The notes below the pieces were generated by a model. That model ran no database searches and was not told the DNA's origin. It saw only the letters and a program-made list of their open reading frames with translations. Below are positions 24,512-44,611 of a stretch of DNA of 64,000 nucleotides, piece by piece. The stretch lies in contig CAZCYO010000005.1 of the NCBI GenBank assembly GCA_964503265.1, forward strand, positions 39,151 through 103,150, given 5' to 3'. Position 1 is the stretch's first letter. Every line of letters begins with the position of its first letter. The position numbers and the translations under genes were made by a program. This DNA is from an uncultured Gammaproteobacteria bacterium (lineage in GTDB: Bacteria; Patescibacteriota; Microgenomatia; Levybacterales; UBA12049).

Positions 24512-25927
24512 TTAATTTAGTATAGATTTAGCGATTTCAAAATGAAAAGGTTTTAATACAGGAGTACTAAAAAATGGATTAGGAGGAGCTGCTGGAGCTT
24601 TCCCATCACAACTAGTTGTTGAAATACCAGCGTCAGGATTTAAATAGTATGCTACCATATCTGCGAAGTCTTCATCCTCATTCTTAGAACCCTCAATACA
24701 CGAACTTGCATTCGAACCATAGTAACTTACTCCTCCTTCCGACTGTCCAGCGATGATCGTATCATTCCAACGAATTTTCTCTCTATCATTACACATACGA
24801 ATGACGTGTCCAAGTTCATGAGTGAATATATATTTGAAAAATGCTTCCCCATACGGATATGCAATTAAACGAACTGATTCGTCCCCACCGTTTATATTCT
24901 TTTTGCCAGGACACCCAACTTGCGAAGAAGTCTCTCCACTGACTTTTTTAACGATTGCTCCTTTGACAAGTGAAGAGAAGTTAGTCCCTTTAATATCCCA
25001 CAGTTTCTCCCAAATCCATTTCATATAGTCAGAATTATTATCAAAGCCTTCGATGGTAATTCCAAATTGTTCTTTTATCGCACTGGCAAGATCAGTTGGA
25101 TAATTTGGTGGCTTCTGTCCGCGAGGACTTCCATCTCCTGTTTTCCCTCCACAATTAGGTGGGAGGACAGGTGATACGGAAGGATTTCCGACTTTCGTTA
25201 TGACACAAGGACTTTGTCCATCACTAGAACCATTTGCACTAATAGATGGTTTAGAAGAAGTATCTACATTTTTCGCAACATCGATAAGAAATTCTTTAAA
25301 AAAACCAACTCCCGGATCTGATCTGTTTGTGGGATTGAGTTGGTAATGACCAAATACCCCATCGCCTGATACCGGGTTATATTCATCAAATTTACTCGTC
25401 CAATCGTAAGAGAGTCCACTTACAGGAATATCATACTGTTTCATGAGTTGATTCACCAGCGTGACAGCAGCTGTATACTGGACTGGTGGAACAGATACTT
25501 TGTCGTGGAAGACACCGTTATATGTCATTTCAATTGAAATTGCTTCTTGGTTATAGCCTGCCACGGCGTATGCAACTTCTGTCGTTTTATCAAGGAGCTC
25601 AACTGTCTGAAGCATCTTCCCATCAGCACCGATGATAAAATGAGCATCTACACCTCGTCCCTCAGAGCCTGAAGCAAAGTAATTATATGTATCAAGAGCA
25701 TTCATACTTGAAGCAGTTGTATGCATCACTACTTTTCTGGGTATAACGCAGTCTCCTGGTCTTCCGTAATCCTCACCAAGAGGCACAAAGAGTTTTTGGA
25801 CATTCGGAAATGAAATAGGTGTTCCAGGACATGTGGTTGGCTGGTTTGCAGCCAACACAGGTGGAGATATTAGAAGTAGAAAGAAAATTAGATTAATAAG
25901 TAAGATTGCATATTTCATAATTAACAC
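24512..25927 (-). CDS. secreted two-domain cell-wall hydrolase: N-acetylmuramoyl-L-alanine amidase (Amidase_2/PGRP) + HExxH zinc metallopeptidase
   Basis: 471 aa; signal peptide; Amidase_2 motifs (VVMHTTASS...AHFIIGADG...AYAVAGYNQEAISIEMTY); a C-terminal HELGH motif (IFTHELGHVIRMCN). Confidence 0.7.
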   Translation of the reverse strand: MLIMKYAILLINLIFFLLLISPPVLAANQPTTCPGTPISFPNVQKLFVPLGEDYGRPGDCVIPRKVVMHTTASSMNALDTYNYFASGSEGRGVDAHFIIGADGKMLQTVELLDKTTEVAYAVAGYNQEAISIEMTYNGVFHDKVSVPPVQYTAAVTLVNQLMKQYDIPVSGLSYDWTSKFDEYNPVSGDGVFGHYQLNPTNRSDPGVGFFKEFLIDVAKNVDTSSKPSISANGSSDGQSPCVITKVGNPSVSPVLPPNCGGKTGDGSPRGQKPPNYPTDLASAIKEQFGITIEGFDNNSDYMKWIWEKLWDIKGTNFSSLVKGAIVKKVSGETSSQVGCPGKKNINGGDESVRLIAYPYGEAFFKYIFTHELGHVIRMCNDREKIRWNDTIIAGQSEGGVSYYGSNASSCIEGSKNEDEDFADMVAYYLNPDAGISTTSCDGKAPAAPPNPFFSTPVLKPFHFEIAKSILN

Positions 25928-26481: not shown

Positions 26482-29400
26482 CTATTGCCAGAACGACTTC
26501 GCACACTCCCAATAGTGGAAACTAAGATTTATGGATTGTAATGAATTATTATAATTAATCGCATTTGTCACCTGGTTCCCCCACGCGACATCACCATGAT
26601 CATATTCTCCATTTTTCCCTTGCCCCATTTGGAATAGTCCCCAAGCCCCACCGGAATCTGGAGTCCCGACAGCAATAGGATCAGCCCACGCATTAGGATT
26701 ATAGCCACTCTCACAGGAGATAATAGTAAAGAACCATTTATCTGCATTTGCTGCATCTTTTTGTTTTAATAATGCATAGAGATTATCTCTCTCTTTCACC
26801 TCATCAAGTGTACATGAAGGATCTCCGAAGTTCTTATTCAAAGGATTTTTACTAATTGCACCTGCATATGTTCCATTACAATTATTTTCATTTGCTGCTT
26901 CATTCTCAGTTGACGGGATAGTCGTCTGTGTCGAAGTCGTTGCCTCGACTCCTACTGCCTGTGCAGTCGCTTGGTTAATGATATAGGTATCTTTAATTTC
27001 TTGGTTTGCTTTGACGACAAGTGTATATATTTGAGGTGTGAATGTTCTCGCAGATGATTGACTACCTGCTGTATAGGTTGTCGCTAACGTCTGCATCTTA
27101 TTTGAGAAGCTTTGCATATTTGAGACATAATATGGGCCCCAGCCCTCCATTGTCCCTCTCCAGTTGTCATTTGCTGAGATGTCTTTTGCTACTTCTTGTG
27201 CGATTGCAACCGCCCCAATTTCAGGGTCCATCAGAAGAATTGCGAGAGCTTGCTGGGCCTGTATATCTCCAGCCGTTGCTTTCGTCACAAGAGACGTAAC
27301 TGTTTCAGCTGGGAATGTCGCGGGATTTTTTATTTTGCCTCCTTTTACAGCCGTTGAGTTTTCAATCACGTTGTTTCCTACTTCCTGTACTTTTTCAGGA
27401 GAATCAGTTTTATAAACTTCCACAAAGTCTGCCGCAAGATGATTTGCTGCTTGAGCGACTTGATTCCCATATCCGACCTGCCATCCTCCAGAAGTAAACC
27501 CTCCACTACATCCTTCATTTATCGTTCCGGGTTTATCTAAGCAGTTCCATGAATACGGATTTCCTCCTGTTCCTTCGATCGCACCTGCCCAAATAACAGA
27601 GACAAAAGGATCGACGTATTTCTTGTCACTATTTTTTACTTTTGCTTGCAGGTACGATTGGTGTGCTGCGACAAATCCCCCAAGTGTGTTAAGACGAGAA
27701 ATTGCGTCTTCGGAAAAGGATTCTTGTGATTGTGTGGGTGAAGGAAGTAAATAGGGAGGTTTTGTGTATGTGTCAACGACAACTGCCGGTGTCTCTGCGT
27801 TTTCTAATCCAGACGCGCCTACGTTGTTTGTCGTCCAGACAATTTTTTTTATAGAACCTGCTTGTTTTACTGGGTCGGTAATAATAGTATTTGTATTATC
27901 GTATGCGATAAACGTTCCTGATGCGCTTGCAAACGTTGTTCCGTCGGGAACGTACTCAGTAGTCTCAAGAGATCGAGCTTTTCCTGCGTACGAGGTTGAA
28001 ATCGTATAGGTGAGTAGCTTTTCCTCATCAGTTAATTCGGATGGATTTTTAATCTCAGCTTTATTAACCGTTTTGCTAACGATAACGGGAATTGTCTCAG
28101 TTAGTTCAGAATTCTCCTGTGCTGTTTGTCCTGCCATGCCAAGTAACATAAAGATAAAGATGATTAGCAGAATAATGATGATAACGACTACTAATACAGG
28201 CACCCAGTACTCAGATGTTGCCGCAAGTCCTTTCTGGACAAGTTGTTTTGCCCCTTCTTTTATGGCTTGTTTTGTCTCTTTTTTCAATGCATTTCCAACC
28301 GCATTCCCGATTTTCTTCGCACCTTTTTGTGCGAGGTCTCTCGCTTTTTTCTTCCCACGGGAGAACGGACCATCAGTGTTATTGTTAGAAGACTGACTAT
28401 TAGTTGTTTGCTGGGCTCCTGGTTGATTTCCTGCATCCTGTCTCTCATCGCGAGTATGACTTCTCGCAATATCTCTTTCCTCCGCTTCTTCCCGTTCTTC
28501 CCGCGGTGCGTAGTGGGGAATCGAAAGCGGGGGAATGAGTGGTGGTAGTTCTGGCACATCTTGATCCTCTTCTTCGATTCTCTCTACTTCAATTTCCTGG
28601 ATTGCCTGTTGTATTGAACTATCTTGTTGCGCATATACCTCTGCTTTTTCAGGAAACTGCTCCACAAACTGCCGAGTATATACAGCACGTCCAATAGCAC
28701 CAACCTGCGCTTCTCCTAATTGCGAGACTGCATCTGAGTAATATGAAGGGGTTGGTGTTGTTAATTTTGCATATGCTTCCTGAAGCGACGTATATGATGC
28801 TTCCCACATTGGATCTTCTCGTTTATCTTGATGTATTTCTTTTCGCTCTTTCTGATAGTACTCCTGGAGAGCCCCCGTATGATATGCAAAGAAACGCTCA
28901 CGCGCGCTATTACTAGTAGCCGTAGTATGTGAATCGCCAAGCTCTCCACGAGGAGTGGTTTGTTCGAGATTTCTATCTTGAGCGATTTGGGTAAATCGTG
29001 GATCATGCGGTAGGTATTTCCTCTCAAGTGCTCGGCGATAGTTTACAGGATTCTCTTTAAAAAATCTGCGAATGATTTTTTCTGCTGCTGCTTTTTTTTC
29101 ACGTTCACGTATTTGTTCGGGTGTGTCTTCAGGTTGTAAAGCCTTGTTTTTCCTTAGTATATCTTCTGCTGCATCGACCGCTTTTTTTTCATCGCCTGGT
29201 TTTATAGGCGATGTCGCGTGTGCTCCTCCATGTCCACCTGTTGGGTGAGATGTCGTATGTTCTTTCTCTTCAGTTCGCATGTATGCGAGAGCATCATAGC
29301 CACCCAGTTCATCAAAATCATTTTTAAATTGAAGTAACTTGTCAGAAACGGATGCTCGCACATCAGGTTCAAGTCGTTGTTTCCATGTTACCCATGACGA

Positions 29401-29505
29401 ATAATCTTTTACATCGTTTTCTGAGGGATGGTATTGTCTGAGGAATGCTTCCCATTGCGAGGCTCGCTGTTTCTTAAGCGGATCGATGCGAGTATTTGTA
29501 GCCAT
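26482..29505 (-). CDS. VirB1-like large bitopic cell-wall hydrolase (cytoplasmic N-domain, one TM, extracellular domain with a C-terminal SLT lytic-transglycosylase-like motif)
   Basis: 1007 aa; TM VPVLVVVIIIILLIIFIFMLLGMAG; C-terminal ISCESGYNPNAWADPIAVGTPDSGGAWGLFQM matches the SLT catalytic E-S...GLxQ signature. Comparable to PrgK/TcpG/TraG-type hydrolases of Gram-positive T4SS. Confidence 0.6.
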   Translation of the reverse strand: MATNTRIDPLKKQRASQWEAFLRQYHPSENDVKDYSSWVTWKQRLEPDVRASVSDKLLQFKNDFDELGGYDALAYMRTEEKEHTTSHPTGGHGGAHATSPIKPGDEKKAVDAAEDILRKNKALQPEDTPEQIREREKKAAAEKIIRRFFKENPVNYRRALERKYLPHDPRFTQIAQDRNLEQTTPRGELGDSHTTATSNSARERFFAYHTGALQEYYQKERKEIHQDKREDPMWEASYTSLQEAYAKLTTPTPSYYSDAVSQLGEAQVGAIGRAVYTRQFVEQFPEKAEVYAQQDSSIQQAIQEIEVERIEEEDQDVPELPPLIPPLSIPHYAPREEREEAEERDIARSHTRDERQDAGNQPGAQQTTNSQSSNNNTDGPFSRGKKKARDLAQKGAKKIGNAVGNALKKETKQAIKEGAKQLVQKGLAATSEYWVPVLVVVIIIILLIIFIFMLLGMAGQTAQENSELTETIPVIVSKTVNKAEIKNPSELTDEEKLLTYTISTSYAGKARSLETTEYVPDGTTFASASGTFIAYDNTNTIITDPVKQAGSIKKIVWTTNNVGASGLENAETPAVVVDTYTKPPYLLPSPTQSQESFSEDAISRLNTLGGFVAAHQSYLQAKVKNSDKKYVDPFVSVIWAGAIEGTGGNPYSWNCLDKPGTINEGCSGGFTSGGWQVGYGNQVAQAANHLAADFVEVYKTDSPEKVQEVGNNVIENSTAVKGGKIKNPATFPAETVTSLVTKATAGDIQAQQALAILLMDPEIGAVAIAQEVAKDISANDNWRGTMEGWGPYYVSNMQSFSNKMQTLATTYTAGSQSSARTFTPQIYTLVVKANQEIKDTYIINQATAQAVGVEATTSTQTTIPSTENEAANENNCNGTYAGAISKNPLNKNFGDPSCTLDEVKERDNLYALLKQKDAANADKWFFTIISCESGYNPNAWADPIAVGTPDSGGAWGLFQMGQGKNGEYDHGDVAWGNQVTNAINYNNSLQSINLSFHYWECAKSFWQ

Positions 29506-29540: not shown

Positions 29541-31940
29541 CTAAGATTGCTGGGGAGTCGTCGGTGGGAGTGGATTTGTCACAGGAATTGTTCCCGTTTG
29601 AGGCTGTGGTGTCGGAGTCATAGTCATAGTTGTTGTTGGTATTTGTGTTGGTTGCACGGTTGGCGTTTGTTGTGGCGCTGTAGGTGTCATAACAGGAGGA
29701 GCACTCGGTTCCTCAACGGTAACCATAATTGGTGCCGTTGGTGCCGTTGGTGCCGTTGGTGCTGCTGTCGGTAGTGGCATAACAGGGGTAACAACTGGAA
29801 CTGGTTGTGGCGTGACTTGCGATAACGGAGGAAGTGGCTGTGCTCCAGGAACAGGGCCGCTATTTAGTGAGGATTGTGTCGGCTGAAATTCTGTCGGTTG
29901 GGTCGGCATAGAGACAGGAGGAGGTGCCTGTTGTATGACTGGTGGTTGTTCGCTTAAAGTAGGTGTTGGCATAACAACTGGCGGTGGTGTTTGCTCAATC
30001 GGTACTGGTGGTGTCTCTGGAACTTGCTCAACAGGCTCAGGGAGTGGTTGTTCAAGTGGTGTATCAAGCGCTGTCTGATCGTCAAGTGTCTGTTGTGCAA
30101 GCTGTTGCTGTTTCATGACCTCCTCTGGATTTGAAGTAATAAGATCGTGCTCAAATGGTGCGCCAAGTACTTTCATCGCGACGTGATTTTGTCCGGCGAA
30201 AAATAATCCTTCTCCGATATCTGCAGTTAATAATAACTCTTTTTCACCTTCAGATAGATAGAAAATTTCTGTCGCCAAATCGACTTCGGCAGTACCTTGT
30301 TTAAGGAGAATCTGAATAGACGAGTTGGTAAGAACTGCTTTACCGTATTCTGTTTTCAAGAAGTCCTCTACGTCTTGTGTGGCGGTTGTTAATCCCAGAT
30401 AGTATTTTCGCGCACGCTTTGCGATTGAATAGACGAATGAGGCTGAATCTTCGTATTTCATCATATACCACGCTTCATCTAAGATCAGGAGTCTTTTTTT
30501 AAGTGATTTTTTAACTTTTGTCCACACGAAATCCAGAATAATATGCATCGCAATTGGACGCAGTTCATCTTCTAGGTTTTTAATATCAAAGATCGTCAGT
30601 GGATTTGTCAGATCAAAATTAGATTTCTGGTTAAAAATACCTGCAGCAGATCCTTTAATGAATTTCTCAAGTCGAAACGCCATCTCTCTTGCATTCGCAT
30701 CCTCATAGCCCATGAGTGTTTTGTATAAATCTTCCATAATTGGTGCTTCTTTGTTCTGGGTAGATGGATCAGGTGTAATGCCTTTTTGACCGTATGTTTC
30801 AATAAGTGCTTTATCTAAAAGCGCGTCATGTTCTGCATCGAGTGTTCCAAGCACGATCTTAAGGAGCCCGTGAAGAGAAAGAATCTTGAGGCCAAGCTCA
30901 TTTTCTCCTGCTTCAAACAGGTTTGCCAAATCAAACGGATTAATTTTAACGGGAGCATTATTTGAGAATTCGACGACTTCACCACCAAGTGTTTGAGTAA
31001 GTGTTCCGTATTCTCCCTCGGGATCTACGACGATTACTTCTGTTCCAAGCATGAATTGCCGCATAATCTCAAGTTTGATCAAATACGATTTCCCTGATCC
31101 TGATTTTCCTAGAACCATCTCGTTCGCATTTTCAAGTGAGAACCTGTCGAAGATAATGAGGGAACCGTTTTGCTGGTTCATCCCATACATGATGCCTTTG
31201 TTCTGTGTAAGCATAGCGCTCGTAAAAGGGAAAGTTGATGCAAGTGATGTCGTATCCATGTTACGAGTGATAAATAGTCGATCACTTGCTATTGGAAGTG
31301 TGGATTTAAATCCTTCTTCCATTTGAAGCGTTGCTGGTTTCGCTGAGAGGAGAAGAGACGCCAGGGTTGTTTGTAGCTGTTTTGATGCTGAGAGCAGATC
31401 TCCAAGCGAATCGCTTGTAATGGTTAGATAAAAAGAAAATTGGAAGAATCTCTCTATGCCTTTTGCTAGTTCTTCCTGAAGTCCAAGTGCATCTTCAAGT
31501 GCTGCTTCAATTTTCGGGTCAACTGGTTTTCCGTTCTCAGCATCTGACGCAATTGTCGCTTCCATTTCCCCGATTTTTCGTCGTAAGTCATTTAATACAT
31601 CATTTGAAGACGTTGGGTAAATAAACATGGAAATATCAATGGTGTGATCGTAATCGACGACTGGTTGTAGCCAACTTGGAGAGACATAACGTGGGTATCC
31701 GACGACAAAGAGGGTGGAGTAATACTTTTCCCCGACACGTACATATTTGAAATCAACTTCAACAGAAGATGGAGAGATAAGATCAACCATCGACACCGTT
31801 CCCTTTTCTAGATTTTGAAGTGCTTTAGATGTAGGTGATGGTGGTGGCGTTTTCCCTTTTGCTGCTGGTTGAGGTGCTTGTGCACCAGCTTGTGTCTGGA
31901 CGGGTGGTTGCGCCACCTTTTTATTTCCAAAAAGTCCCAT
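29541..31940 (-). CDS. VirB4/TraC/CagE-family T4SS ATPase (ATPase body, with a Pro/Thr/Gln-rich ~190-aa C-terminal tail)
   Basis: 799 aa; Walker A GKSGSGKS and Walker B LLILDEAW. The region after the Pro-rich N-terminus (VDFKYVRVGEKYYSTLFVVGYPRYVSPSWL) matches the VirB4 central domain. Confidence 0.85.
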   Translation of the reverse strand: MGLFGNKKVAQPPVQTQAGAQAPQPAAKGKTPPPSPTSKALQNLEKGTVSMVDLISPSSVEVDFKYVRVGEKYYSTLFVVGYPRYVSPSWLQPVVDYDHTIDISMFIYPTSSNDVLNDLRRKIGEMEATIASDAENGKPVDPKIEAALEDALGLQEELAKGIERFFQFSFYLTITSDSLGDLLSASKQLQTTLASLLLSAKPATLQMEEGFKSTLPIASDRLFITRNMDTTSLASTFPFTSAMLTQNKGIMYGMNQQNGSLIIFDRFSLENANEMVLGKSGSGKSYLIKLEIMRQFMLGTEVIVVDPEGEYGTLTQTLGGEVVEFSNNAPVKINPFDLANLFEAGENELGLKILSLHGLLKIVLGTLDAEHDALLDKALIETYGQKGITPDPSTQNKEAPIMEDLYKTLMGYEDANAREMAFRLEKFIKGSAAGIFNQKSNFDLTNPLTIFDIKNLEDELRPIAMHIILDFVWTKVKKSLKKRLLILDEAWYMMKYEDSASFVYSIAKRARKYYLGLTTATQDVEDFLKTEYGKAVLTNSSIQILLKQGTAEVDLATEIFYLSEGEKELLLTADIGEGLFFAGQNHVAMKVLGAPFEHDLITSNPEEVMKQQQLAQQTLDDQTALDTPLEQPLPEPVEQVPETPPVPIEQTPPPVVMPTPTLSEQPPVIQQAPPPVSMPTQPTEFQPTQSSLNSGPVPGAQPLPPLSQVTPQPVPVVTPVMPLPTAAPTAPTAPTAPIMVTVEEPSAPPVMTPTAPQQTPTVQPTQIPTTTMTMTPTPQPQTGTIPVTNPLPPTTPQQS

Positions 31941-32605
31941 TATGCTGCTCCTCCTTCTCGAACGAATGCACCATGAACACTTGTATCAACTTCACTCATA
32001 GAATAGGTGCTATCGTTATAGATTTCATAGAAGAGTTTGGCTAATTCATCTTTTTCAAGGAGTTTTGCCGAGGAAGAGAGTTTTCGAAGTTGGCCAAGTA
32101 ACGATTCGGCTTTCGCGAGAATTGCTTCTTGTGCTTTCGCTGCAAACGCGTCTGGGACATCTCCTTTTTTACTTACAGCTTGAGTTGCTCCAGCTGCTCC
32201 AAGTTCCATTGAAGAGAAAGGAACGACCATATAGAATTGTTTACTTAAGACCACATTTACTTTCGTCATTTCCTGAACAAAGTCTTTATAGAGTTCAATT
32301 TGCTTTGAAAGGAGTGCGTTTGTGGTTTTTTGTGCTTGTTCTTCAAGCTGTTTGGTGTAGATCGAGATATCCATTCGTTTGTTACGAACCAGAATCTGCA
32401 CAGGGAATGTTAATGAATTAAGAAGAGACGCATAGGAGTAGATACGAGCATCCTGTTCAGCTCGTGAGAGAAGTGAGAAGTTACTTGCGGTAATTTCGAT
32501 GATGCCACAGGCATTCCCACTTTCAAGCAGGACTGTGTTTCCGATGATATCCTTTATTTCGGTAAATTTTTGGGTAGATGAATGTACTTGGGCAGATTTA
32601 CTCAT
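31940..32605 (-). CDS. VirB4 N-terminal domain encoded as a separate ORF (split VirB4)
   Basis: 221 aa; EIKDIIGNTVLLESGNACGIIEITASNFSLLSRAEQDARIYSYASLLNSLTFPVQILV matches the conserved extreme N-terminus of Gram-positive VirB4 homologs. Its TAA overlaps the ATG of the ATPase ORF (TAATG). Confidence 0.6.
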   Translation of the reverse strand: MSKSAQVHSSTQKFTEIKDIIGNTVLLESGNACGIIEITASNFSLLSRAEQDARIYSYASLLNSLTFPVQILVRNKRMDISIYTKQLEEQAQKTTNALLSKQIELYKDFVQEMTKVNVVLSKQFYMVVPFSSMELGAAGATQAVSKKGDVPDAFAAKAQEAILAKAESLLGQLRKLSSSAKLLEKDELAKLFYEIYNDSTYSMSEVDTSVHGAFVREGGAA

Positions 32606-32607
32606 AG

Positions 32608-33864
32608 TTAGCTAAACAGTGCTTTTCTTAATTCTTCTCGTTCGTCATGGGACGTAATATCAAGCGGGTGAAGGATGTCTCCATTCACTATTACTTCAAT
32701 TGTATCAAAGCGCGCGATACTTTTGGGATCCTCAAGCGTTAATGTATAAACTCCGTTAGGGAGTGCTGTTGCTGATGCAAATTGTCCGAGTTCATTTGTT
32801 TTAAATGCCCGAACCGGAGTGCCTTCTTTATCGGTTAATTCAACTAAAATATTTGAGAGAATATTCCCTCGTGGATCGTGGACCACTCCAAGAAGGACGT
32901 TTGGTGTGTCTGAAGGGGTTAATATCCCTCGACTTTTTGCTTCGGCCGGTGTCATAAGTTTTTTTACATGAGGCTCGTAAGCTAAGTCTACAGGCGTTTC
33001 ATTTGGAGCAGGTGGTTTTAATTCCTCGACTGTATACGTGCTCGTCAGTTGTGGGGCAGCTGCCGATGTTTCTGCTTGGTGCATTTTTTGTAGTTCTTGC
33101 TCGAGCTGCTCTTTTTGTTTGAGAAGCGCTTGCAGTTGATGTTCAAGTGACATTGTATGATCATGCGCAGCTTGAGTCTGTGCAGCCTGTGCATGCATTT
33201 CTTCATCTTTTGCCTTATTAAGTTCTGCCTGCATCTTCGTCACTGTATCGATAATTTCTTTGTCTTTTTCTTCAAGTGATGTTGGTGCAGTGGATTGTGT
33301 TGTTATTTGGGGAATGATAATTCCGCCATCAATTGCCACAGGAGGAGTGGTTGGGTGCTGAAGCGGTAGAGGCGCTGGGGCTTGAGGATTAAATAAATGC
33401 TGCAGGAAGGCTGATTCACGAGTATCCATGTCAGATTGCTTTTGGGTTGCTGTACTGGCGAGAAATGTCGTAAATGCTTTTTTCTTTTCTTCTTCTTGTG
33501 CCTTTTTTTCCGGTTGATGAGTCGCGTTTTGATTTACGTGAGTTGAAATGGAGAAGTCTGTAAACGCATAGTGATTACCCATCTTTTGATACACATATTG
33601 GTTCGGTGAAATAAGTGCTTTAAGGAGTTGTGTAACCATAACATCAAGTGGGCGTCCGTCAATTGGTAAGAATGCAAGGGCTGCACCACTTCCGGCAAAT
33701 AGCGGGATGAAGATAAGTTTTAGTAAGAGAAAGACAGGAGCATAGTAAAGAATAATTGCACTTACACAGCCGGTCGCGAGATAGGCAAATTGCTTCACTG
33801 TCATGTTTCCGATGAGTTTAAATTGAAATCCGGTGACGTCTTGTGGGATAGGATGGTTTTCCAT
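32608..33864 (-). CDS. VirB3-like (PrgI/TcpE-family) membrane protein fused to a coiled coil and a C-terminal carboxypeptidase-regulatory-like beta-sandwich domain
   Basis: 418 aa; N-terminus FQFKLIGNMTVKQFAYLATGCVSAIILYYAPVFLLL with two TM segments (VirB3/PrgI-like); central Q/E-rich coiled coil; C-terminus LLGVVHDPRGNILSNILVELTDKEGTPVRAFKTNELGQFA (CarboxypepD_reg-like). Confidence 0.5.
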   Translation of the reverse strand: MENHPIPQDVTGFQFKLIGNMTVKQFAYLATGCVSAIILYYAPVFLLLKLIFIPLFAGSGAALAFLPIDGRPLDVMVTQLLKALISPNQYVYQKMGNHYAFTDFSISTHVNQNATHQPEKKAQEEEKKKAFTTFLASTATQKQSDMDTRESAFLQHLFNPQAPAPLPLQHPTTPPVAIDGGIIIPQITTQSTAPTSLEEKDKEIIDTVTKMQAELNKAKDEEMHAQAAQTQAAHDHTMSLEHQLQALLKQKEQLEQELQKMHQAETSAAAPQLTSTYTVEELKPPAPNETPVDLAYEPHVKKLMTPAEAKSRGILTPSDTPNVLLGVVHDPRGNILSNILVELTDKEGTPVRAFKTNELGQFASATALPNGVYTLTLEDPKSIARFDTIEVIVNGDILHPLDITSHDEREELRKALFS

Positions 33865-34027: not shown

Positions 34028-37000
34028 CTAGGCTGCTTTGGCATGCGTGTCATCGTGCGCGGAATCAGGTTTTCGTCCACGTCCTCTTATTCGATTCATG
34101 AAGCTTCTAACTTTCCCAGGTTCTTTTGCATGACTATCTTCATGATGATTATCATCGTGCTTTGCATGGTCAGCTTCTTCTTCTGGTGCTTTCTTTTTCT
34201 CGTCTATAGCATATTGTGTTTCTGCTTCTAGTTTTGCAAATACGTCTTCTGCTTTTGAAAGAATTGCACTTTGTGCTTTATCCTCCGGCGATGTTTTATC
34301 TTTGAGTGCAGCAATTCGCGCATGAATATTCTCTTTAGCTGCTTTATGTGCCGCAAGTTTATCATCTTCTGTCATACCCGTTGTATATCGTTGGTTCAGT
34401 CCCGCGCGGAGATCAGCTGGGAACGCAGCGTCTTCAATAAAGGGCTTTGCTTTATCAGGAATATCTCCAGGCTTTTTTTCTTCAGTTTTTGTTTCGGCTG
34501 GTTTTGTGCCTGAACCCGTTGGAGCAGCTGCAGGCGTGTCTGTTTGTGTTTTATGTTCATCAGATTTTCCTGTATGAGGTGTTTTGTGTTCTTCTTTCTT
34601 CTTTTCTGGGACGACTCCTGTGGCTTCAAGTTCGCGTCGTGGATCAAAAGGAAGTGGGATCGCAGGCCACGGCTCAGTCACGGTCGGCGGCGTAATGAGC
34701 ATATCTTTTGGAAGAGTGAGCGTCATGGTTGCATTAATACTCGTGTCTGGTGGAGCTAGTGCGATCACATCGCCTGTTAATGGAAGGCCATAATTACCAG
34801 GTCCTGGAACTGGGTTAAATCCTTGACCAGTAAACCCAGCTTCACCGAGATTGTGTAGAAAATCAGGATTCTTCGCTTTGAGTTCACTAACTTTTCTAAT
34901 ATCAAATCTAAAGTTCACTAAATCACCGCGTGCTCCGCCTGGGCGAGGGAAGTTCGTTGGATTCGTTTCAGTATCCATATAATATTCACCTTCAAGTACT
35001 GGTTGTCCGTTAAGACTCATGTCTTGAATTGTAATATGCTTGTTCGCATCATATGTGATCTTAATTCGTCCTTCATCTGTGGTTATATCGCCACCAGTTG
35101 GATTTGCTTTAATGAGAGCTGTGATTCTGTCGTGGAGAGGCACTTTGTTTTCAATGACGACATTTCCGACTGAGAGACCCGCTTTATCGAGTGCTGCATG
35201 GAGTCCTTGCATCTCTTGTGGTTGGCCGGTGAATTTGACTGATCCATCGGGTTGAATTTCCCCCATGACATGCTTTGTACTTGGTAGCCAGAATTTACCT
35301 CCTGGAAGTACTTTTATGCGATCGACACTTTGAGTGACTGGATTTGGCATGTCGAAGAATGCTGCCTGACTTCCTCCGTTTACAGCAGCAAGTGCTTGTT
35401 TCATTTGTACTACTTGCATTGAATCGACACTAGTATGTGGAAGTCCGCTTAGCATAGCTTTTACTTCCGTTGGGAGATCAGGTGCTTTGGCGATATCTCC
35501 ATGTACCACGATTGATCCATCCTGTTTTACAAACATAGGGAGGTTGAGTGCTTTTCCCTTCTGGTCAAGAACGGGAACTCCTTGTTTATCAAGCAGCCAG
35601 AGGTGTCGTTCTGTGCCTGAAAAAGCAGTTTCTGGATGGACACGAAATCCGTTGGGGAGTGATACGTCATGTCCAGTTTTAAATGCATCTTTAAATGCAT
35701 CAATACTTGGCGGAACACTGAACTTATTCTCAATCCATGCGCCAGCGCCTGTTCCTCTAAGGCCTCTGGTCTGTTCCATAGCGCCTTTGCCCATTCGGTC
35801 AAAGAGGGTAGGACCGACGTACTGTGGTTGGCCAGTTCTCAGCTCTGTTATGGTTGCACGGGCACTTGAGGCGATCTTTTGTCCGATAACTCCACCCACC
35901 ATACCTGTGCCAAAGCTGATCGCACCAGCAGTAAGGGAGCGACGGAATCGGTAGTTTCTCATTCGTCGATCAGCAGCTCGCTGTCCTGGAGTGAGTTCTT
36001 GTGCCCATTTGGAGAGTTCTGTTACTAGATCTTGTTGCATTTCTTGATATTTTGCTTGAGTTGAAATATCGAAATGTAACAGTTCTGCTAAATCTTTCTC
36101 GTCCTTGGTGAGATTCGCGCTTTCATCACCATAGGCGGTGGCACTCTCAAAGGTAATAAGGTTCTTACGATTGTCGACTGACATTTCTTCTCTTTTTATA
36201 ATTTCAGCAATTCTACTTCTCGCTTCATTAACTGCTCGAGTCATGCGATTTGCATCTCCACTGGTCATGTCTGCTTTAATTTCAGCCACACTTCGTCTCG
36301 TGCGTCCGGTTATGATATCGACAGTTGTTCCTCCTCCTTCATGGAGTACTTTTGCTGAAATTGCTTTTCTGAGTTCAAATATTTGTTCAAGTTCGTGACG
36401 ATTTCGTGCGTCTGGTCCGGTGGATCGTCTGTTATACGCGACGTCTTTATTCACTGTCCAGTAATCACGATTTGCTTCCTGCCATTTTCTCGCTCCCGCT
36501 GCGACTCCTGCTGCAGCTGAGGCAACGCCAAGTGGCGTAAATGGAGAGAGAGGGGCCGCAATTCTTCCGATCAATCTAACCGGTCCTGCCCATCCTCGTC
36601 CGGCGATTGCGACAATTGCTCCGACAGTCATCGGGTGGAGTAGGGTATTTCCAATTACCGCAAGAATCGGTCCGCCTTCACGCAGTACCCGAGCTCTCGC
36701 ATTTACTCTATAAAGAAGACTTTCTTCCCAGCCTCGACCATTTTCATAAGCAGCAGCACGTTCATTCCCTAAGATAAAGACAACTTTTTTATTAACCCTA
36801 TCAAGAGCTGCGAGACGATCTGCTTCGGGGATGAGTTTACCATCTTTATCGACAATAGTTTTTAGATACCTTTCTCGTGCGACTTTCGCCATCTGCGTTA
36901 TGTCTGAAGCAAATTCTTGGGCGCGATCTCCATAGCGATTGGGTGCGTTGAGGATTGCTTGCGCATCAGGGTCGCGTGGATTGGCACGAATGATATCTCG

Positions 37001-39496
37001 AAGTTCTGTGCGTATTTGTTCAGGTGTCCACGTCCTGTCATCGACCACCATCGATCGAAGCATTCGATCCCAAATTCGTGTATGAAGCTCACTTCCATTT
37101 CGTACTTCCCTAATTGTTTCTCCACGTCGTCGCGCTTGTTCGGACGTCATGTTCTTTATACGATCGACAGTTCCAGCTGCCGAGGCATTTAATTCTGCAC
37201 GAACAGCAGCAGCAGTCGCTTCCATATTTGCACGACCAAGCATTTGGCGCTGTCTTCCGTCTAAGATGTTCATGACACCTTCACGCTGTCTAAAGCTCGT
37301 TGGAACTTCAGCAATTCTTCTCATCCAGTTGGTAAAGCGTGACCATCCACGACGGCGAAGCCCTTCGTTAACACTTTCTTTCGTTCGAATATCACCTAAC
37401 TGTGCCGCAGCTTCTGTCCTGTTCGCGATACCGATTTCAATATCCTCAGGTTCGACTGGGCCAGGGGGACCTTCTATAGTGGGCTTCGAATCATTAGTAG
37501 TAGGCTCTTTTCCTACGGGTGCAGTTGGTGGGGAAGCAACTTTGTTTTCTTGTTGATTACTTTCAGTACCAGTTATAACTGGAGCTGCTGGTGGGTCTCC
37601 ATCAAGCGTATCTGGTTTTTTTGTAGGGTTGTTATCTCCAGAGGTGCCATCCGTATCTTTCCCAGTACCTGATGCATTTCCGTTTGGCCCTTGGACGAAG
37701 TCTTTTCGTTTTATTCGTATTGACGATGCTTTTTTCTCTGGAGTAGCTGTTTTATTTCGTCTGATGAGTAATTCTGCTCCTTTTCGCCCGAAGTCGAGGA
37801 GTAAGTCATTATCATTTTCGTTAAACAGTGTTTTCATTCGTGCAATTGCTGTTTGCTTCGGTGTTCTTTCCTCAGCAAGCTTTTTTCCGTCAACTGTCAT
37901 TGGTGTAAGTGTGAGGTCTCGAGTTAATTTATTCCCTTCATTATCTTTTCCGACCCCTTCATATTGTGCGATCAGCTCGCTAATCTTCATATTCTTGGCT
38001 TCATTGAGCTTTACTCGCATTTGCTCAAGTACGGTGTCAGCTTTTGGCGTTGGTTCATTAAGAGAGGTCATGGCATCAAAAACTCGCTGATAGAACTGAC
38101 CTCTGAGTTCACTTAATTTCTTTGCAGCCTCTGTGTAGGCAGGAGTGCCACGTTTAGATTTGTCTTGAAGAATGACCTCATGTGCGCGCATTTGCTCACG
38201 ATATGTTTTATCTTTATCCTTTGTAAGCTGCTCGTCTTTTACATCAAGAAGTCGATCAGAGAGAAGGGCCATGGCGTAGAGATCTTTTTGTGGATTTGCA
38301 TTGGCAGCTTCAGGTCCACCGACCCGAGTGCCATCAGGTTTCTGCTTAAAATACGATTCCATATTCCCAGCAACTGTTTCATTCGGGGTTTTATGCCCCA
38401 CGACTGTATACACTTCTTGGCGGCGATATGGGTCAAGGAGTGTATTATTACTTGCTTCCACGGCTATTGCGTGTTGTGCTTCAAGTGCCATAAGGATTTG
38501 AAATCCTTCGCCTTTTCGGGCGACAGCATTCAGCGCTTTCGTGAGCGAATCGTCTTTTCCGGCATAATCTCCTCGAAAACGAATACGGTCTTCAATTTGT
38601 TTATATAATGCATCAGTATTTTTCTCAGCAGGGAGGGCAATTCTTGCTGCTTTGAAAAGTTCACCTGCTGTATCCCATGCGTCTTTTGATTGTTTCTGTA
38701 CCTCTTCAATGCTTAGTCCCGTATCTCCCGGTTCGTCAGTGAAGTAGGGGAATGCGTGTGTAGTCTCCTCTCCTTCTTTTATTTCTGTTAACGCTTTAGC
38801 TAATGTTGGTAGATCTCCACTTTTTCTAGCTGCTTCTAACCTCGGATCGTTTGTAAATTTTCCACTTGCATCTCTTTCTGGAGCAGGTTTATCTGATGAT
38901 CGAGGAACTTTAGGGAGTTCGAGAACACGAAGTGTTTGTATCTCATTTTGCGCAAGTTTAATGTCTGCTTCAACGGGTGTGTCATTTCCCGATATAATTC
39001 GTGCACGTTCTTTAATTTTTATTTCCCCTTCTTCATGGGAGAATAAATTATCATATGTTCTTCCTCCTGCCTCTAATGTGTCCTTAATCTTTTTGAGCTT
39101 GTTTTTCTCGTCATCCGTAGAAGCTAATACTAGCTCATCATCTAGAAATTTAAGTACTCCATTAACAGGAAGTCCCTCTCTGACTGTATGTGTTTTTCCA
39201 TCACTAATAACAGGCCTGTCATAACTATCTCTTAAGTCGATGACCTGCTTTCCTGGTTTGCCATCTATTACGATGTCTGCTAATGGTTTTCGTTCAGATA
39301 GTTTTTTGAGTGCACTAGAAAAAGTATCATATGCCGCAAAGGTAGCCGCATCTTTCGGATCTAGTGTTTTGGGGTCTTTGCCACGAAAAGGTTCGGCTTT
39401 TTTTGCCCAAAGCCGTTGTGCTTCATGTACGACATTAACGACAACTTTACGTTCTTGACCAGCGTCTTTCTCAGCTGTTACTCCTGTTTCGGCCAT
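34028..39496 (-). CDS. giant hypothetical protein (1822 aa) with central hydrophobic segments and a His/Lys/Asp-rich C-terminus; candidate T4SS structural protein or substrate
   Basis: Single uninterrupted ORF; no NTP-binding motif; putative TM segments around residues 940-990 (ILAVIGNTLLHPMTVGAIVAIAG; RLIGRIAAPLSPFTPLGVASAAAGVAAGA); low-complexity P/T/K linker regions. Confidence 0.5.
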   Translation of the reverse strand: MAETGVTAEKDAGQERKVVVNVVHEAQRLWAKKAEPFRGKDPKTLDPKDAATFAAYDTFSSALKKLSERKPLADIVIDGKPGKQVIDLRDSYDRPVISDGKTHTVREGLPVNGVLKFLDDELVLASTDDEKNKLKKIKDTLEAGGRTYDNLFSHEEGEIKIKERARIISGNDTPVEADIKLAQNEIQTLRVLELPKVPRSSDKPAPERDASGKFTNDPRLEAARKSGDLPTLAKALTEIKEGEETTHAFPYFTDEPGDTGLSIEEVQKQSKDAWDTAGELFKAARIALPAEKNTDALYKQIEDRIRFRGDYAGKDDSLTKALNAVARKGEGFQILMALEAQHAIAVEASNNTLLDPYRRQEVYTVVGHKTPNETVAGNMESYFKQKPDGTRVGGPEAANANPQKDLYAMALLSDRLLDVKDEQLTKDKDKTYREQMRAHEVILQDKSKRGTPAYTEAAKKLSELRGQFYQRVFDAMTSLNEPTPKADTVLEQMRVKLNEAKNMKISELIAQYEGVGKDNEGNKLTRDLTLTPMTVDGKKLAEERTPKQTAIARMKTLFNENDNDLLLDFGRKGAELLIRRNKTATPEKKASSIRIKRKDFVQGPNGNASGTGKDTDGTSGDNNPTKKPDTLDGDPPAAPVITGTESNQQENKVASPPTAPVGKEPTTNDSKPTIEGPPGPVEPEDIEIGIANRTEAAAQLGDIRTKESVNEGLRRRGWSRFTNWMRRIAEVPTSFRQREGVMNILDGRQRQMLGRANMEATAAAVRAELNASAAGTVDRIKNMTSEQARRRGETIREVRNGSELHTRIWDRMLRSMVVDDRTWTPEQIRTELRDIIRANPRDPDAQAILNAPNRYGDRAQEFASDITQMAKVARERYLKTIVDKDGKLIPEADRLAALDRVNKKVVFILGNERAAAYENGRGWEESLLYRVNARARVLREGGPILAVIGNTLLHPMTVGAIVAIAGRGWAGPVRLIGRIAAPLSPFTPLGVASAAAGVAAGARKWQEANRDYWTVNKDVAYNRRSTGPDARNRHELEQIFELRKAISAKVLHEGGGTTVDIITGRTRRSVAEIKADMTSGDANRMTRAVNEARSRIAEIIKREEMSVDNRKNLITFESATAYGDESANLTKDEKDLAELLHFDISTQAKYQEMQQDLVTELSKWAQELTPGQRAADRRMRNYRFRRSLTAGAISFGTGMVGGVIGQKIASSARATITELRTGQPQYVGPTLFDRMGKGAMEQTRGLRGTGAGAWIENKFSVPPSIDAFKDAFKTGHDVSLPNGFRVHPETAFSGTERHLWLLDKQGVPVLDQKGKALNLPMFVKQDGSIVVHGDIAKAPDLPTEVKAMLSGLPHTSVDSMQVVQMKQALAAVNGGSQAAFFDMPNPVTQSVDRIKVLPGGKFWLPSTKHVMGEIQPDGSVKFTGQPQEMQGLHAALDKAGLSVGNVVIENKVPLHDRITALIKANPTGGDITTDEGRIKITYDANKHITIQDMSLNGQPVLEGEYYMDTETNPTNFPRPGGARGDLVNFRFDIRKVSELKAKNPDFLHNLGEAGFTGQGFNPVPGPGNYGLPLTGDVIALAPPDTSINATMTLTLPKDMLITPPTVTEPWPAIPLPFDPRRELEATGVVPEKKKEEHKTPHTGKSDEHKTQTDTPAAAPTGSGTKPAETKTEEKKPGDIPDKAKPFIEDAAFPADLRAGLNQRYTTGMTEDDKLAAHKAAKENIHARIAALKDKTSPEDKAQSAILSKAEDVFAKLEAETQYAIDEKKKAPEEEADHAKHDDNHHEDSHAKEPGKVRSFMNRIRGRGRKPDSAHDDTHAKAA

Positions 39497-42777: not shown

Positions 42778-43143
42778 TTACGTACATGTGTCAAATCCAA
42801 AGTTCTTAATGCATGAGGCACCTGTTATATATGCGATTGTATTGACGATACCTATCGCTAAGAGAATCAATACAAGTCCGATCAGTGCATAGGTGATGAT
42901 TTGTTTTGCTGCACCTGCTTGTTTCGGATCTCCACCAGACATAATATATTTAATACCACCCAAAATGATAAACACGAGTGCGGTAAATCCAGCAAAGAAG
43001 AGGGAATAGTTAAGGAGTTGCTTAAAGAGCGCCGGGATACATGCTAGTGTTGCGATATCAGCAGTCCCATCTGGTGCAGTCCCTTTAAGACAGCCTGCCT
43101 TTGCCCAGAAAGATTCAGCGAGAATGAATAAGTGAATGAACAT
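42778..43143 (-). CDS. VirB2/TrbC-like T4SS pilin paralog 1
   Basis: 121 aa; signal sequence + TM-loop-TM core GFTALVFIILGGIKYIMSGGDPKQAGAAKQIITYALIGLVLILLAIGIVN, shared with the four downstream paralogs. Confidence 0.6.
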   Translation of the reverse strand: MFIHLFILAESFWAKAGCLKGTAPDGTADIATLACIPALFKQLLNYSLFFAGFTALVFIILGGIKYIMSGGDPKQAGAAKQIITYALIGLVLILLAIGIVNTIAYITGASCIKNFGFDTCT

Positions 43144-43212
43144 ATATCTAGCCTAACAAATGCCAAAAAAAAAGACAAGCATATGCTTGTCTTAGTCTAA
43201 AAAAGACGGTAA

Positions 43213-43644
43213 TTAGTTAACGAGTTTCGGAAGAGAAAGATTACTAACACTAAGACCAAATAATCCGAGAACGATATTAAGAATGAAGTAGGCAAGGAAG
43301 GTAATAATAAGACCAACAAGAGCAGCAACGATAGTCCCACGTGCTTCTCCAACTTTGGCTTTATCACCACCTGAAAGAATCCATTTAATACCACCAAAGA
43401 TTAGAAAGAAGAGAGAAATAACAGCAGCAATTACAAGAACTCCAATAATTATATTTCGAAGAACATCGCCAGTTGAACTGCCTTGAAGCTTACATAGTTG
43501 ATCTTGGATTTGTCCTGCTGATCCACCCGTAACACCTGACTTAGCACAAGGATTAAGATCTACTTCGCCAGCTGCCATTGCAGTAGATACGACTGAGGCC
43601 ATAAAAAGTGAAGATGTAGAGATTGTTGTGAGCAGTTTTTTCAT
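43213..43644 (-). CDS. VirB2/TrbC-like T4SS pilin paralog 2
   Basis: 143 aa; signal peptide (MKKLLTTISTSSLFMASVVSTAMA); core LFFLIFGGIKWILSGGDKAKVGEARGTIVAALVGLIITFLAYFILNIVLGLFGL. Confidence 0.65.
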   Translation of the reverse strand: MKKLLTTISTSSLFMASVVSTAMAAGEVDLNPCAKSGVTGGSAGQIQDQLCKLQGSSTGDVLRNIIIGVLVIAAVISLFFLIFGGIKWILSGGDKAKVGEARGTIVAALVGLIITFLAYFILNIVLGLFGLSVSNLSLPKLVN

Positions 43645-43784
43645 GTTTTTTAGATAAGTTATTGTTATCTGTATTTATTATTGAACTATTGTTTATGTGT
43701 TGTCAATAGATCAAAATGAATTACTTTTTTGTGCCCTTTTGAGGCTAAATGTATTCATTTGCTATAACGGCGCATCATCCAAAA

Positions 43785-44198: not shown

Positions 44199-44237
44199 AG
44201 ATATATCGTAGAAACTCTCACAAAAAAAGTCAATTGA

Positions 44238-44567: not shown

Positions 44568-44611
44568 AGTATTAGCATAGTGAATACTCTAATCATTTTG
44601 CAAGATAGGTA

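What the first reader, a model, noticed from the sequence alone, without database searches (positions are those of the whole stretch)
29541..32605. VirB4 is split into two translationally coupled ORFs (N-terminal domain separate from the ATPase body)
The 221-aa ORF (31940-32605) carries the conserved extreme N-terminal VirB4 domain (…IIGNTVLLESGNACGIIEITASNFSLL…FPVQILV…). Its TAA overlaps the ATG of the 799-aa ATPase ORF (TAATG). The junction falls in a Pro/Ala/Gln-rich low-complexity linker. Either this is a genuine split gene, or it is a frameshift from an indel or sequencing error, or it is programmed recoding.
Basis: partly seen in the sequence, partly recalled or inferred. Interest (0 to 1): 0.55.

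Follow-up and report, generated by a model that had tools for sequence, protein, structure and literature searches.

The report
Split VirB4 ATPase (TrsD-like + body)
The motor ATPase (VirB4) of this ultra-small bacterium's type IV secretion system really is encoded as two back-to-back genes, but this split is the normal, conserved and already published arrangement (TrsD-like protein plus VirB4) in Patescibacteria and some Gram-positive plasmids, not an error or recoding.

Summary
A 221-aa ORF (31940-32605, minus strand) ends in TAA, and that stop overlaps the ATG of a 799-aa ORF (29541-31940) as TAATG. An AGGAGG Shine-Dalgarno lies 9 nt upstream of the ATG.

The small ORF corresponds to the first ~160-230 residues of full-length monoderm VirB4 proteins. 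The large ORF matches only the remainder and shows no similarity to the small-ORF family. The two ORFs therefore tile a complete VirB4.

The split is genuine and old:
- 78 of 79 informative loci from different Patescibacteria species are split at the same place.
- These loci show all three frame relationships and different stop/start overlaps.
- ORF1 is under strong purifying selection (dN/dS about 0.03).
- Only rare fused forms exist.
- Firmicute plasmids (pSK41 TrsD/TrsE, Geobacillus, Pontibacillus) have the same layout.

This rules out a sequencing error, a pseudogene and programmed recoding.

The arrangement is already in the literature. Quinonero-Coronel et al. 2025 report TrsD homologues, remotely homologous to the VirB4 N-terminus, as the commonest T4SS component next to virB4 in Patescibacteria. 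They also report one as essential in Southlakia epibionticum.

The parts
32608..33864 (-). PrgI/VirB3-like membrane protein (418 aa) with a C-terminal CarboxypepD_reg/prealbumin-like domain. Its stop lies 2 nt before the ORF1 ATG.
   Evidence: Pfam PF12666 PrgI E 5e-8 (res 5-92) and PF13620 E 7e-6 (res 324-380). Junction TAA-CT-ATG. Same gene in the same position in L001, L003 and L005.
31940..32605 (-). ORF1, 221 aa: TrsD-like / Pfam PF26593 'TraC-like' protein. It is the detached first part of the VirB4 N-terminal domain.
   Evidence: NCBIfam VirB4_plasma profile positions 98-233, E 2.7e-8, and TrsD/TraD NF041427, E 1.6e-3. hhalign to residues 4-160 of a 786-aa Firmicute VirB4, 85.6%. Foldseek top 13 hits are TrwK/VirB4. 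Family of 786+ proteins of about 220 aa. dN/dS 0.03-0.04.
31950..31955 (-). AGGAGG Shine-Dalgarno for ORF2, inside the 3' end of ORF1, 9 nt before the ATG.
   Evidence: Sequence. Retained in the close orthologues L005 and L007 despite near-saturated synonymous change. An SD-like motif is present in 53/78 loci.
31938..31942 (-). TAATG stop/start overlap (1 nt) between ORF1 and ORF2.
   Evidence: Among 78 split loci the junction is ATGA in 38, TAATG in 11, and a 0-3 nt gap in 18.
31797..31940 (-). Pro/Ala/Gln-rich low-complexity N-terminal linker of ORF2 (residues 1-48).
   Evidence: Homology to TrsE and full-length VirB4 starts only at residues 52-66.
30144..31796 (-). VirB4 body (ORF2 residues ~49-599): second half of the N-terminal domain plus the P-loop ATPase domain. 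Walker A GKSGSGKS is at 31086-31109 and Walker B LLILDEA at 30471-30491.
   Evidence: NCBIfam conju_CD1110: 378 bits (cut-off 325), profile positions 176-733 of 752. Pfam P-loop_TraG, DUF87 and AAA_10. PDB 4AG5 VirB4 C-terminal domain E 4e-45 and TrwK residues 445-736. Motifs located.
29541..30143 (-). About 200-aa Pro/Thr/Gln-rich low-complexity C-terminal tail of ORF2, including the stop codon.
   Evidence: Composition P 27%, T 17%, Q 13%. No family match beyond residue ~627.

Best explanation
This is a natural, ancient gene fission of the type IV secretion ATPase VirB4, inside a typical chromosomal Patescibacteria (CPR) T4SS cluster.

ORF1 (221 aa) is the TrsD-like protein (Pfam PF26593 'TraC-like'). 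It corresponds to the first ~160-230 residues of full-length monoderm VirB4. ORF2 (799 aa) is the rest: the second half of the N-terminal domain, the Walker A/B ATPase domain, and disordered tails. The cut lies in a disordered linker.

The three genes prgI/virB3-like, trsD-like and virB4 are packed with 2-nt and -1-nt junctions. ORF2 has its own strong Shine-Dalgarno inside the end of ORF1. The two halves are therefore most likely made as separate polypeptides by coupled translation in roughly equal amounts.

Inferred, not shown: the two polypeptides reassemble non-covalently into a VirB4-like N-terminal domain. In the R388 structure that domain is the part wrapped by VirB3 and the part that mediates VirB4 dimerisation. 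The split ATPase would then function like an intact VirB4 hexamer at the membrane base of the machine.
For: Shown here:

(1) Complementarity.
- ORF1 matches VirB4_plasma profile positions 98-233 and ORF2 matches 293-891. ORF2 matches the CD1110 VirB4 model only from position 176 of 752.
- The ORF1-family profile aligns to residues 4-160 of a 786-aa Alicyclobacillus VirB4, and ORF2 residues 66-613 align to residues 188-782 of that same protein.
- The ORF1-family profile finds nothing in ORF2 (probability 0.6%).

(2) Fold. The AF2 model of ORF1 (pLDDT 68) gives TrwK/VirB4 chains as its 13 best PDB matches (probability 0.92-1.0, TM 0.39-0.49).

(3) Natural fused forms join the two parts directly: P0185 at 787 aa, P0127, and L083 at 782 aa.

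(4) Conservation.
- 78 of 79 informative species-level loci are split. ORF2 frame offsets are 58/12/8 across the three possibilities. Junctions are ATGA x38, TAATG x11 and 0-3 nt gaps x18.
- The family has 786+ members of about 220 aa ending at the same place.
- dN/dS is 0.03-0.04, with the junction and SD retained while pS is 0.67.

(5) The same synteny (PrgI - TrsD-like - ATPase - cell-wall hydrolase) occurs in CPR loci and in Firmicute plasmids. Geobacillus pGspE55-1 scores hhalign 98.5%, and Pontibacillus and pSK41 trsC-trsD-trsE have the same order.

(6) Literature.
- TrsD homologues, remotely homologous to the VirB4 N-terminus, are the most abundant T4SS component in Patescibacteria. 1,664 of 2,272 are associated with VirB4, and one is essential in Ca. 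Southlakia epibionticum (PMC12102498).
- In R388, VirB3 wraps the VirB4 N-terminal domain (residues 15-400), and VirB4 dimerisation is mediated by the N-terminal domains (PMC9259494).
Against: - Physical association of the two polypeptides, their stoichiometry and separate translation are all inferred, not shown.
- The sequence link between ORF1 and VirB4 N-termini is moderate: 32 bits to VirB4_plasma, hhalign 85.6%.
- The structural match is modest (TM about 0.4-0.5, rmsd 7-9 A) on a model of mean pLDDT 68.
- The match to the staphylococcal TrsD model is weak: 18 bits against a cut-off of 200, and hhalign probability 10% to pSK41 TrsD.
- A profile search of PDB sequences found no VirB4.
- Foldseek output gives no residue ranges, so placing ORF1 on the first half of the TrwK N-terminal domain rests on the sequence tiling.
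Confidence: 0.85

Rival explanations
1. The split is an artefact or a recent lesion: a single-base indel from sequencing or assembly error, or a pseudogenising frameshift, in what should be one continuous virB4.
For: The two ORFs are in different frames and abut exactly. Such artefacts do occur in these data: in L004 the ATPase body is broken into 387 + 261 aa, whereas the otherwise identical locus L003 has it intact.
Against: - 78/79 independent species-level loci are split at the same protein position, with three different frame relations and different stop codons.
- ORF1 homologues end at a conserved length of about 220 aa.
- The ORF2 frame is closed 17 codons upstream of its ATG.
- ORF2 has its own AGGAGG SD.
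- dN/dS is 0.03-0.04.
Confidence: 0.02
2. Programmed recoding (ribosomal frameshift or stop read-through) at the junction produces a full-length fused VirB4 in addition to, or instead of, the two separate products.
For: Overlapping stop/start codons sit in a low-complexity region. Eight loci have the two ORFs in the same frame, separated only by stop codon(s). Fused proteins are evidently functional in rare relatives (L083, P0185).
Against: - Recoding signals need a conserved frame relation and a slippery site. Here the downstream frame is offset 2 in 58 loci, offset 1 in 12 and in-frame in 8. Gaps run from -4 to +150 nt, and the junction sequences are not conserved.
- An SD plus ATG is present at the start of ORF2 in most loci.
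- The window junction CAGCATAATGGG has no obvious slippery heptamer (sequence).
Confidence: 0.03
3. ORF1 descends from a VirB4 N-terminal domain but no longer acts as a piece of VirB4. It is an independent accessory factor, such as an adaptor, assembly chaperone or regulator, possibly at a different stoichiometry. The ATPase body then works without that domain.
For: - The literature assigns TrsD no function.
- 103 of 150 family representatives carry their own long low-complexity tails of 40-456 aa, which suggests some autonomy.
- In Gracilibacteria, TrsD homologues are reported as not associated with virB4 (PMC12102498).
- In R388 the two VirB4 subunits of each dimer have different partners, VirB3 versus VirB8 tails, so asymmetric use is conceivable.
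Against: - Adjacency is almost invariant, with stop/start overlaps typical of coupled translation.
- Natural fusions have a very short linker.
- ORF1 and ORF2 are strictly complementary with respect to full-length VirB4.
Confidence: 0.1

Closest known systems
TrsD-like proteins next to VirB4 in Patescibacteria T4SS clusters (Quinonero-Coronel et al. 2025, PMC12102498; essential SEML1 T4SS of Ca. Southlakia epibionticum, Wang et al. 2023)
   Same: Same protein family: about 220 aa, Pfam PF26593 'TraC-like' on close homologues. Same position between the PrgI/VirB3-like gene and virB4. Same cluster content: VirB2-like pilins, PrgI, VirB4, cell-wall hydrolases, and no relaxase seen nearby.
   Different: Nothing essential. 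This is another genome's copy. The paper describes TrsD as remotely homologous to the VirB4 N-terminus with no assigned function. It does not, in the passages read, state that the adjacent VirB4 lacks that part, quantify the junctions, or mention fused forms. Those points are added here.
TrsD + TrsE of staphylococcal conjugative plasmids pGO1/pSK41 (and TraD + TraE of pIP501-type systems); NCBIfam NF041427 TrsD/TraD family
   Same: Gene order trsC (small membrane protein) - trsD (227 aa) - trsE (672-aa ATPase) - membrane protein - CHAP hydrolase. TrsE starts at the same point as ORF2: ORF2 residue 52 aligns to TrsE residue 35, E 8e-43. ORF1 aligns collinearly with TrsD over 171 columns.
   Different: Sequence similarity of ORF1 to staphylococcal TrsD is marginal: 18 bits against a cut-off of 200, and hhalign probability 10%. 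Those systems are plasmid-borne conjugation machines with a relaxase and coupling protein. This one is a chromosomal CPR cluster with pilin genes.
Full-length monoderm VirB4 (CD1110 family, e.g. the 786-aa Alicyclobacillus 'TraC family protein'; PrgJ/TcpF-type) and diderm VirB4 TrwK of R388
   Same: ORF1 plus ORF2 together cover the whole protein collinearly. Walker A/B ATPase domain is present. The ORF1 model resembles TrwK.
   Different: It is encoded as two polypeptides cut in a disordered linker. ORF2 carries about 48 aa of N-terminal and about 200 aa of C-terminal low-complexity extensions that are absent from the full-length reference.
VirB3-VirB4 fusions (opposite kind of rearrangement in some conjugative systems)
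   Same: Shows that the VirB3/VirB4 N-terminal module is evolutionarily plastic with respect to gene boundaries (PMC12102498).
   Different: That is a fusion of neighbouring genes, not a fission. No such fusion is seen here: PrgI-like, ORF1 and ORF2 are three separate ORFs.

Membership tests
VirB4 family ATPase (ORF1 + ORF2 taken together) | P-loop ATPase C-terminal domain with Walker A and Walker B, matching VirB4 models above the curated threshold | tested here: met
   conju_CD1110 scores 378 bits against a cut-off of 325. Pfam P-loop_TraG E 3e-27. PDB 4AG5 VirB4 CTD E 4e-45. GKSGSGKS and LLILDEA motifs located.
VirB4 family ATPase (ORF1 + ORF2 taken together) | Complete VirB4 N-terminal domain preceding the ATPase domain | tested here: met
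   Met only when both ORFs are combined. ORF2 alone starts at position 176/752 of the CD1110 model. ORF1 supplies residues 4-160 of a full-length homologue, and ORF2 supplies residues 188-782. Natural fusions P0185 and L083 exist.
VirB4 family ATPase (ORF1 + ORF2 taken together) | VirB4-like fold of the N-terminal part | tested here: met
   Foldseek: 13 best PDB hits are TrwK/VirB4 chains, probability 0.92-1.0, TM(query) 0.39-0.49. The model is only moderately confident (pLDDT 68).
VirB4 family ATPase (ORF1 + ORF2 taken together) | Hexameric membrane-associated ATPase that binds VirB3 and energises the T4SS | not testable with these tools
   Needs biochemistry or structure. Only gene adjacency to a PrgI/VirB3-like gene is shown.
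TrsD/TraD family (NCBIfam NF041427) / Pfam PF26593 TraC-like | Sequence match to the family model above its threshold | tested here: inconclusive
   NF041427 scores E 1.6e-3, 18 bits, far below its cut-off of 200. PF26593 is precomputed on nearly all homologues, including the 92%-identical P0001, but the local Pfam scan did not report it for ORF1. hhalign is 98.5% to the Geobacillus plasmid counterpart but only 10% to pSK41 TrsD.
TrsD/TraD family (NCBIfam NF041427) / Pfam PF26593 TraC-like | Small (~200-320 aa) protein encoded immediately upstream of an N-terminally short VirB4 ATPase and downstream of a VirB3/PrgI-like gene | tested here: met
   Window, CPR loci, pSK41, Geobacillus and Pontibacillus plasmids.
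Programmed ribosomal frameshift / read-through gene | Conserved frame relation and conserved slippery or recoding signal at the junction across homologues | tested here: not met
   Frame offsets 58/12/8, junction gaps from -4 to +150 nt, and non-conserved junction sequence.
   No VirB8 family appears in the Pfam or NCBIfam scans. No VirB8 structure is among the 50 best Foldseek hits.

The most novel reading that the evidence does not exclude
The fission may be more than a neutral cut. It may free the first VirB4 subdomain to act as an exchangeable, possibly sub-stoichiometric adaptor. That adaptor, often carrying disordered tails hundreds of residues long, would decide which ATPase subunits dock to PrgI/VirB3, or would recruit cargo. 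This could substitute for the missing coupling protein and relaxase in the essential, non-conjugative T4SS of Patescibacteria.
Probability: 0.08. Interest if true: 0.55.

Novelty: already known. Interest (0 to 1): 0.2.

Why it matters
For annotation, the two ORFs should not be merged, flagged as a frameshifted pseudogene, or left as 'hypothetical protein' plus 'DUF87'. Together they are the VirB4 motor of a T4SS that is essential for the epibiotic lifestyle in the one Patescibacteria model studied.

For biology, the comparative data sharpen what 'TrsD' is. It is the detached first part of the VirB4 N-terminal domain, kept next to its partner and apparently co-translated. That gives a concrete, testable hypothesis for a protein that the literature lists as having no assigned function. 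It does not open a new kind of system.

Tried and rejected
- A profile search of PDB sequences with the ORF1 family found only chance hits (alpha-catenin, E about 2). The link to VirB4 needed a fold comparison and profile-profile alignment.
- The local Pfam scan gave no meaningful hit for ORF1, although PF26593 'TraC-like' is precomputed on its homologues.
- hhalign of the family against pSK41 TrsD was weak (probability 10%). I therefore do not claim strict membership of the staphylococcal TrsD subfamily.
- I tested whether ORF1 might be a duplicate of a domain still present in ORF2. It is not.
- The main text of Guglielmini et al. 2014 does not name TrsD. The statement of TrsD/VirB4 N-terminal homology is therefore cited from PMC12102498 only.
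- Wang et al. 2023 does not discuss VirB4 by name in the main text.
- One literature query failed on syntax.
- I did not try to co-fold ORF1 with ORF2. The structure tool takes single chains only, and the natural fused homologues are not eligible inputs with a deep alignment.
- No tRNA genes were found in the window. The organism's class within Patescibacteria was not pinned down: the nearest named relatives are Levyibacteriota at about 55% identity, and the 90%-identical contigs are unnamed or mis-titled.
Full report
**1. The observation**

Two ORFs lie head to tail on the minus strand: 31940..32605 (221 aa) and 29541..31940 (799 aa). The junction reads CGAGAAGGAGGAGCAGCATAATGGGA. The TAA stop of the first ORF shares its last A with the ATG of the second. 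A perfect AGGAGG sits 9 nt upstream of that ATG.

The downstream frame is closed 17 codons upstream of its ATG, and the upstream frame ends at the TAA. The first ~48 residues of the 799-aa ORF are Pro/Ala/Gln-rich. The last ~20 residues of the 221-aa ORF are variable and predicted disordered.

**2. What the two ORFs are**

ORF2 is a VirB4-type ATPase:
- It scores 378 bits on NCBIfam conju_CD1110, above the cut-off of 325.
- It matches Pfam P-loop_TraG, DUF87 and AAA_10.
- It matches the crystal structure of the VirB4 C-terminal domain (4AG5, E 4e-45).
- It has Walker A GKSGSGKS and Walker B LLILDEA.

ORF2 matches full-length VirB4 models only from an internal position onward: 176 of 752 for CD1110, 293 of 894 for VirB4_plasma and 239 of 792 for TIGR00929.

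ORF1 matches the missing part. It hits VirB4_plasma positions 98-233 (E 2.7e-8) and, weakly, the TrsD/TraD family model (E 1.6e-3).

Against one and the same full-length 786-aa Firmicute VirB4 (Alicyclobacillus plasmid), the two ORFs tile collinearly. The ORF1-family profile aligns to residues 4-160 (hhalign 85.6%, E 5.6e-6). ORF2 residues 66-613 align to residues 188-782 (E 5e-53). The ORF1-family profile finds nothing inside ORF2 (probability 0.6%). The two are therefore complementary, not duplicates.

An AlphaFold2 model of ORF1 (pLDDT 68, pTM 0.62) has TrwK/VirB4 chains of the R388 T4SS as its 13 best PDB matches (probability 0.92-1.0, TM 0.39-0.49). No VirB8 or other T4SS component appears among them.

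**3. Genuine split, error or recoding?**

ORF1 belongs to a large family. There are 786 clusters at 90% identity with E <= 1e-3. The 120 listed are all 216-228 aa, and the 43 aligned end at the same place. At 50% clustering there are 2,318 representatives.

I scanned one genome per GTDB species. Of 80 loci, 78 have the ORF1 domain and the ATPase body in separate ORFs, one is fused (L083, 782 aa) and one is cut by a contig end. Most loci are Levyibacteriota, Saccharimonadales and other Patescibacteria.

The junction varies across the 78 split loci:
- The downstream frame is offset by 2 in 58 loci, by 1 in 12, and is in the same frame behind a stop in 8.
- The junction is ATGA in 38 loci, TAATG in 11 and a 0-3 nt gap in 18, with a few longer gaps.
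- The stop codon is TAA, TGA or TAG.
- An SD-like motif precedes the downstream start in 53 loci.

Against its 90-92% identical orthologues, ORF1 has dN/dS of 0.03-0.04. Synonymous sites are almost saturated (pS 0.67), yet AGGAGG and TAATG are retained.

A sequencing error or recent pseudogene cannot give this pattern. Programmed frameshifting or read-through would require a conserved frame relation and signal, and neither is present. For contrast, locus L004 shows what an artefactual break looks like. There the ATPase body is split into 387 + 261 aa in one assembly, while the otherwise identical locus L003 has it intact.

**4. Fused forms and the linker**

Rare relatives encode both parts in one polypeptide with a short linker: P0185 (787 aa, ORF1 domain at 3-208, ATPase body at 209-759), the truncated P0127, and L083.

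Among the 150 best representatives, 44 are the domain alone, 103 carry an extra low-complexity tail of 40-456 aa, and 3 matched the ATPase body, of which P0185 and P0127 are clear fusions and P0167 is doubtful. The cut therefore lies in a disordered, expandable linker. In different lineages that linker stays with either half. Here it is at the N-terminus of ORF2.

**5. Context**

The window carries a typical Patescibacteria T4SS cluster on the minus strand:
- four VirB2-like T4SS_pilin genes (42778-45997)
- a 584-aa protein and a DUF5663 protein
- an 1,822-aa protein without family matches
- the PrgI/VirB3-like gene with a C-terminal CarboxypepD_reg-like domain
- ORF1 and ORF2
- a 1,007-aa membrane protein
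- an Amidase_2 protein

The PrgI-like stop is 2 nt from the ORF1 ATG. The order PrgI - ORF1-like - ATPase - large hydrolase recurs in CPR loci L001-L006. It also recurs in Firmicute plasmids:
- Geobacillus pGspE55-1 has PrgI, a 318-aa protein with hhalign 98.5% to the ORF1 family, and a 636-aa ATPase.
- A Pontibacillus plasmid has the same order.
- pSK41 has trsC-trsD-trsE, with TrsE starting at the same point as ORF2.

**6. How it most likely works**

Shown: two complementary, conserved, tightly abutting genes, with an independent ribosome-binding site for the second.

Inferred: translational coupling yields the two polypeptides in matched amounts, and they reassemble into a complete VirB4 N-terminal domain. 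In the R388 structure that domain (residues 15-400) is wrapped by VirB3 and mediates VirB4 dimerisation (PMC9259494). The adjacent PrgI-like protein would therefore be the membrane anchor for the ORF1/ORF2 complex.

The main rival that remains open is that ORF1 has become an autonomous accessory factor. I give that about 10%.

**7. Comparison with what is known**

Quinonero-Coronel et al. 2025 (PMC12102498) already report the following:
- 1,664 of those homologues are associated with virB4.
- TrsD otherwise occurs only in the pGO1 subclass of MPF_FATA.
- It has no assigned function.
- The copy in Ca. Southlakia epibionticum ML1 is essential, according to the Tn-seq data of Wang et al. 2023.

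Pfam also has a family for it, PF26593 'TraC-like', seen as a precomputed annotation.

The feature is thus already known, and this window holds one more example. The work here adds some precision in four respects: the explicit complementarity with an N-terminally short VirB4, the near-universality of the split (78/79), the junction statistics that point to coupled translation, and the existence of rare fused forms. It is a correct and well-read finding of low novelty.

Noticed in passing
window 29541-30143 (-): The VirB4 body carries a C-terminal tail of about 200 aa with P 27%, T 17% and Q 13% and no family match. Close orthologues are similarly long (814-825 aa), whereas most CPR counterparts are 600-700 aa. 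A long disordered tail on a cytoplasmic T4SS ATPase is unexplained.
   Followed up: partly
proteins P0134-P0270, e.g. P0230 (715 aa), P0205 (679 aa): 103 of 150 representatives of the TrsD-like family carry Q/P/N/T-rich low-complexity C-terminal tails of 40-456 aa and no ATPase body. The disordered linker of the split VirB4 is highly expandable, and different lineages keep it on different halves.
   Followed up: partly
window 32608-33864 (-); also L001 4592-5992, L003 4790-6004: The PrgI/VirB3-like protein is long (404-466 aa). It has a Gln/Ala/Pro-rich middle and a C-terminal CarboxypepD_reg/prealbumin-like domain that is conserved across CPR loci, unlike the ~100-aa PrgI of Firmicute plasmids.
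   Followed up: no
window 34028-39496 (-): An 1,822-aa ORF immediately upstream of the PrgI-like gene has no Pfam match at E <= 0.01. An 1,815-aa counterpart occupies the same position in L005 and L006.
   Followed up: no
window 42778-45997 (-): Four genes carry the T4SS_pilin (VirB2-like) domain, one of them 461 aa long with the pilin domain at its C-terminus. This matches the pilin clusters reported for Patescibacteria T4SSs.
   Followed up: no
window 26482-29505 (-) and 24512-25927 (-): The 1,007-aa protein downstream of virB4 has a transmembrane segment and no significant Pfam hit, yet it occupies the position held by Peptidase_M15/M23 or DD-endopeptidase proteins in other loci. An Amidase_2 protein follows two genes later.
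   Followed up: no
L004 6662-8660 versus L003 6662-8662: In one metagenome assembly the ATPase body itself is broken into 387 + 261 aa, while an otherwise identical locus has it intact. This is a probable assembly frameshift or recent pseudogene, and it served as a contrast to the conserved TrsD/VirB4 split.
   Followed up: partly
loci L007, L009, L013 and others: Many contigs that carry this Patescibacteria-type cluster are titled 'uncultured Gammaproteobacteria', 'Lysobacterales', 'Acidiferrales', 'Limnocylindrales' or 'Sulfotelmatobacter'. These record titles look like mislabels or contaminated bins.
   Followed up: no
L003 416-793: A gene with 23S_rRNA_IVP / bAvd domains (accessory variability determinant of diversity-generating retroelements) sits among the T4SS pilin genes of one Patescibacteria genome. 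This hints at a DGR acting near or on pilin genes.
   Followed up: no
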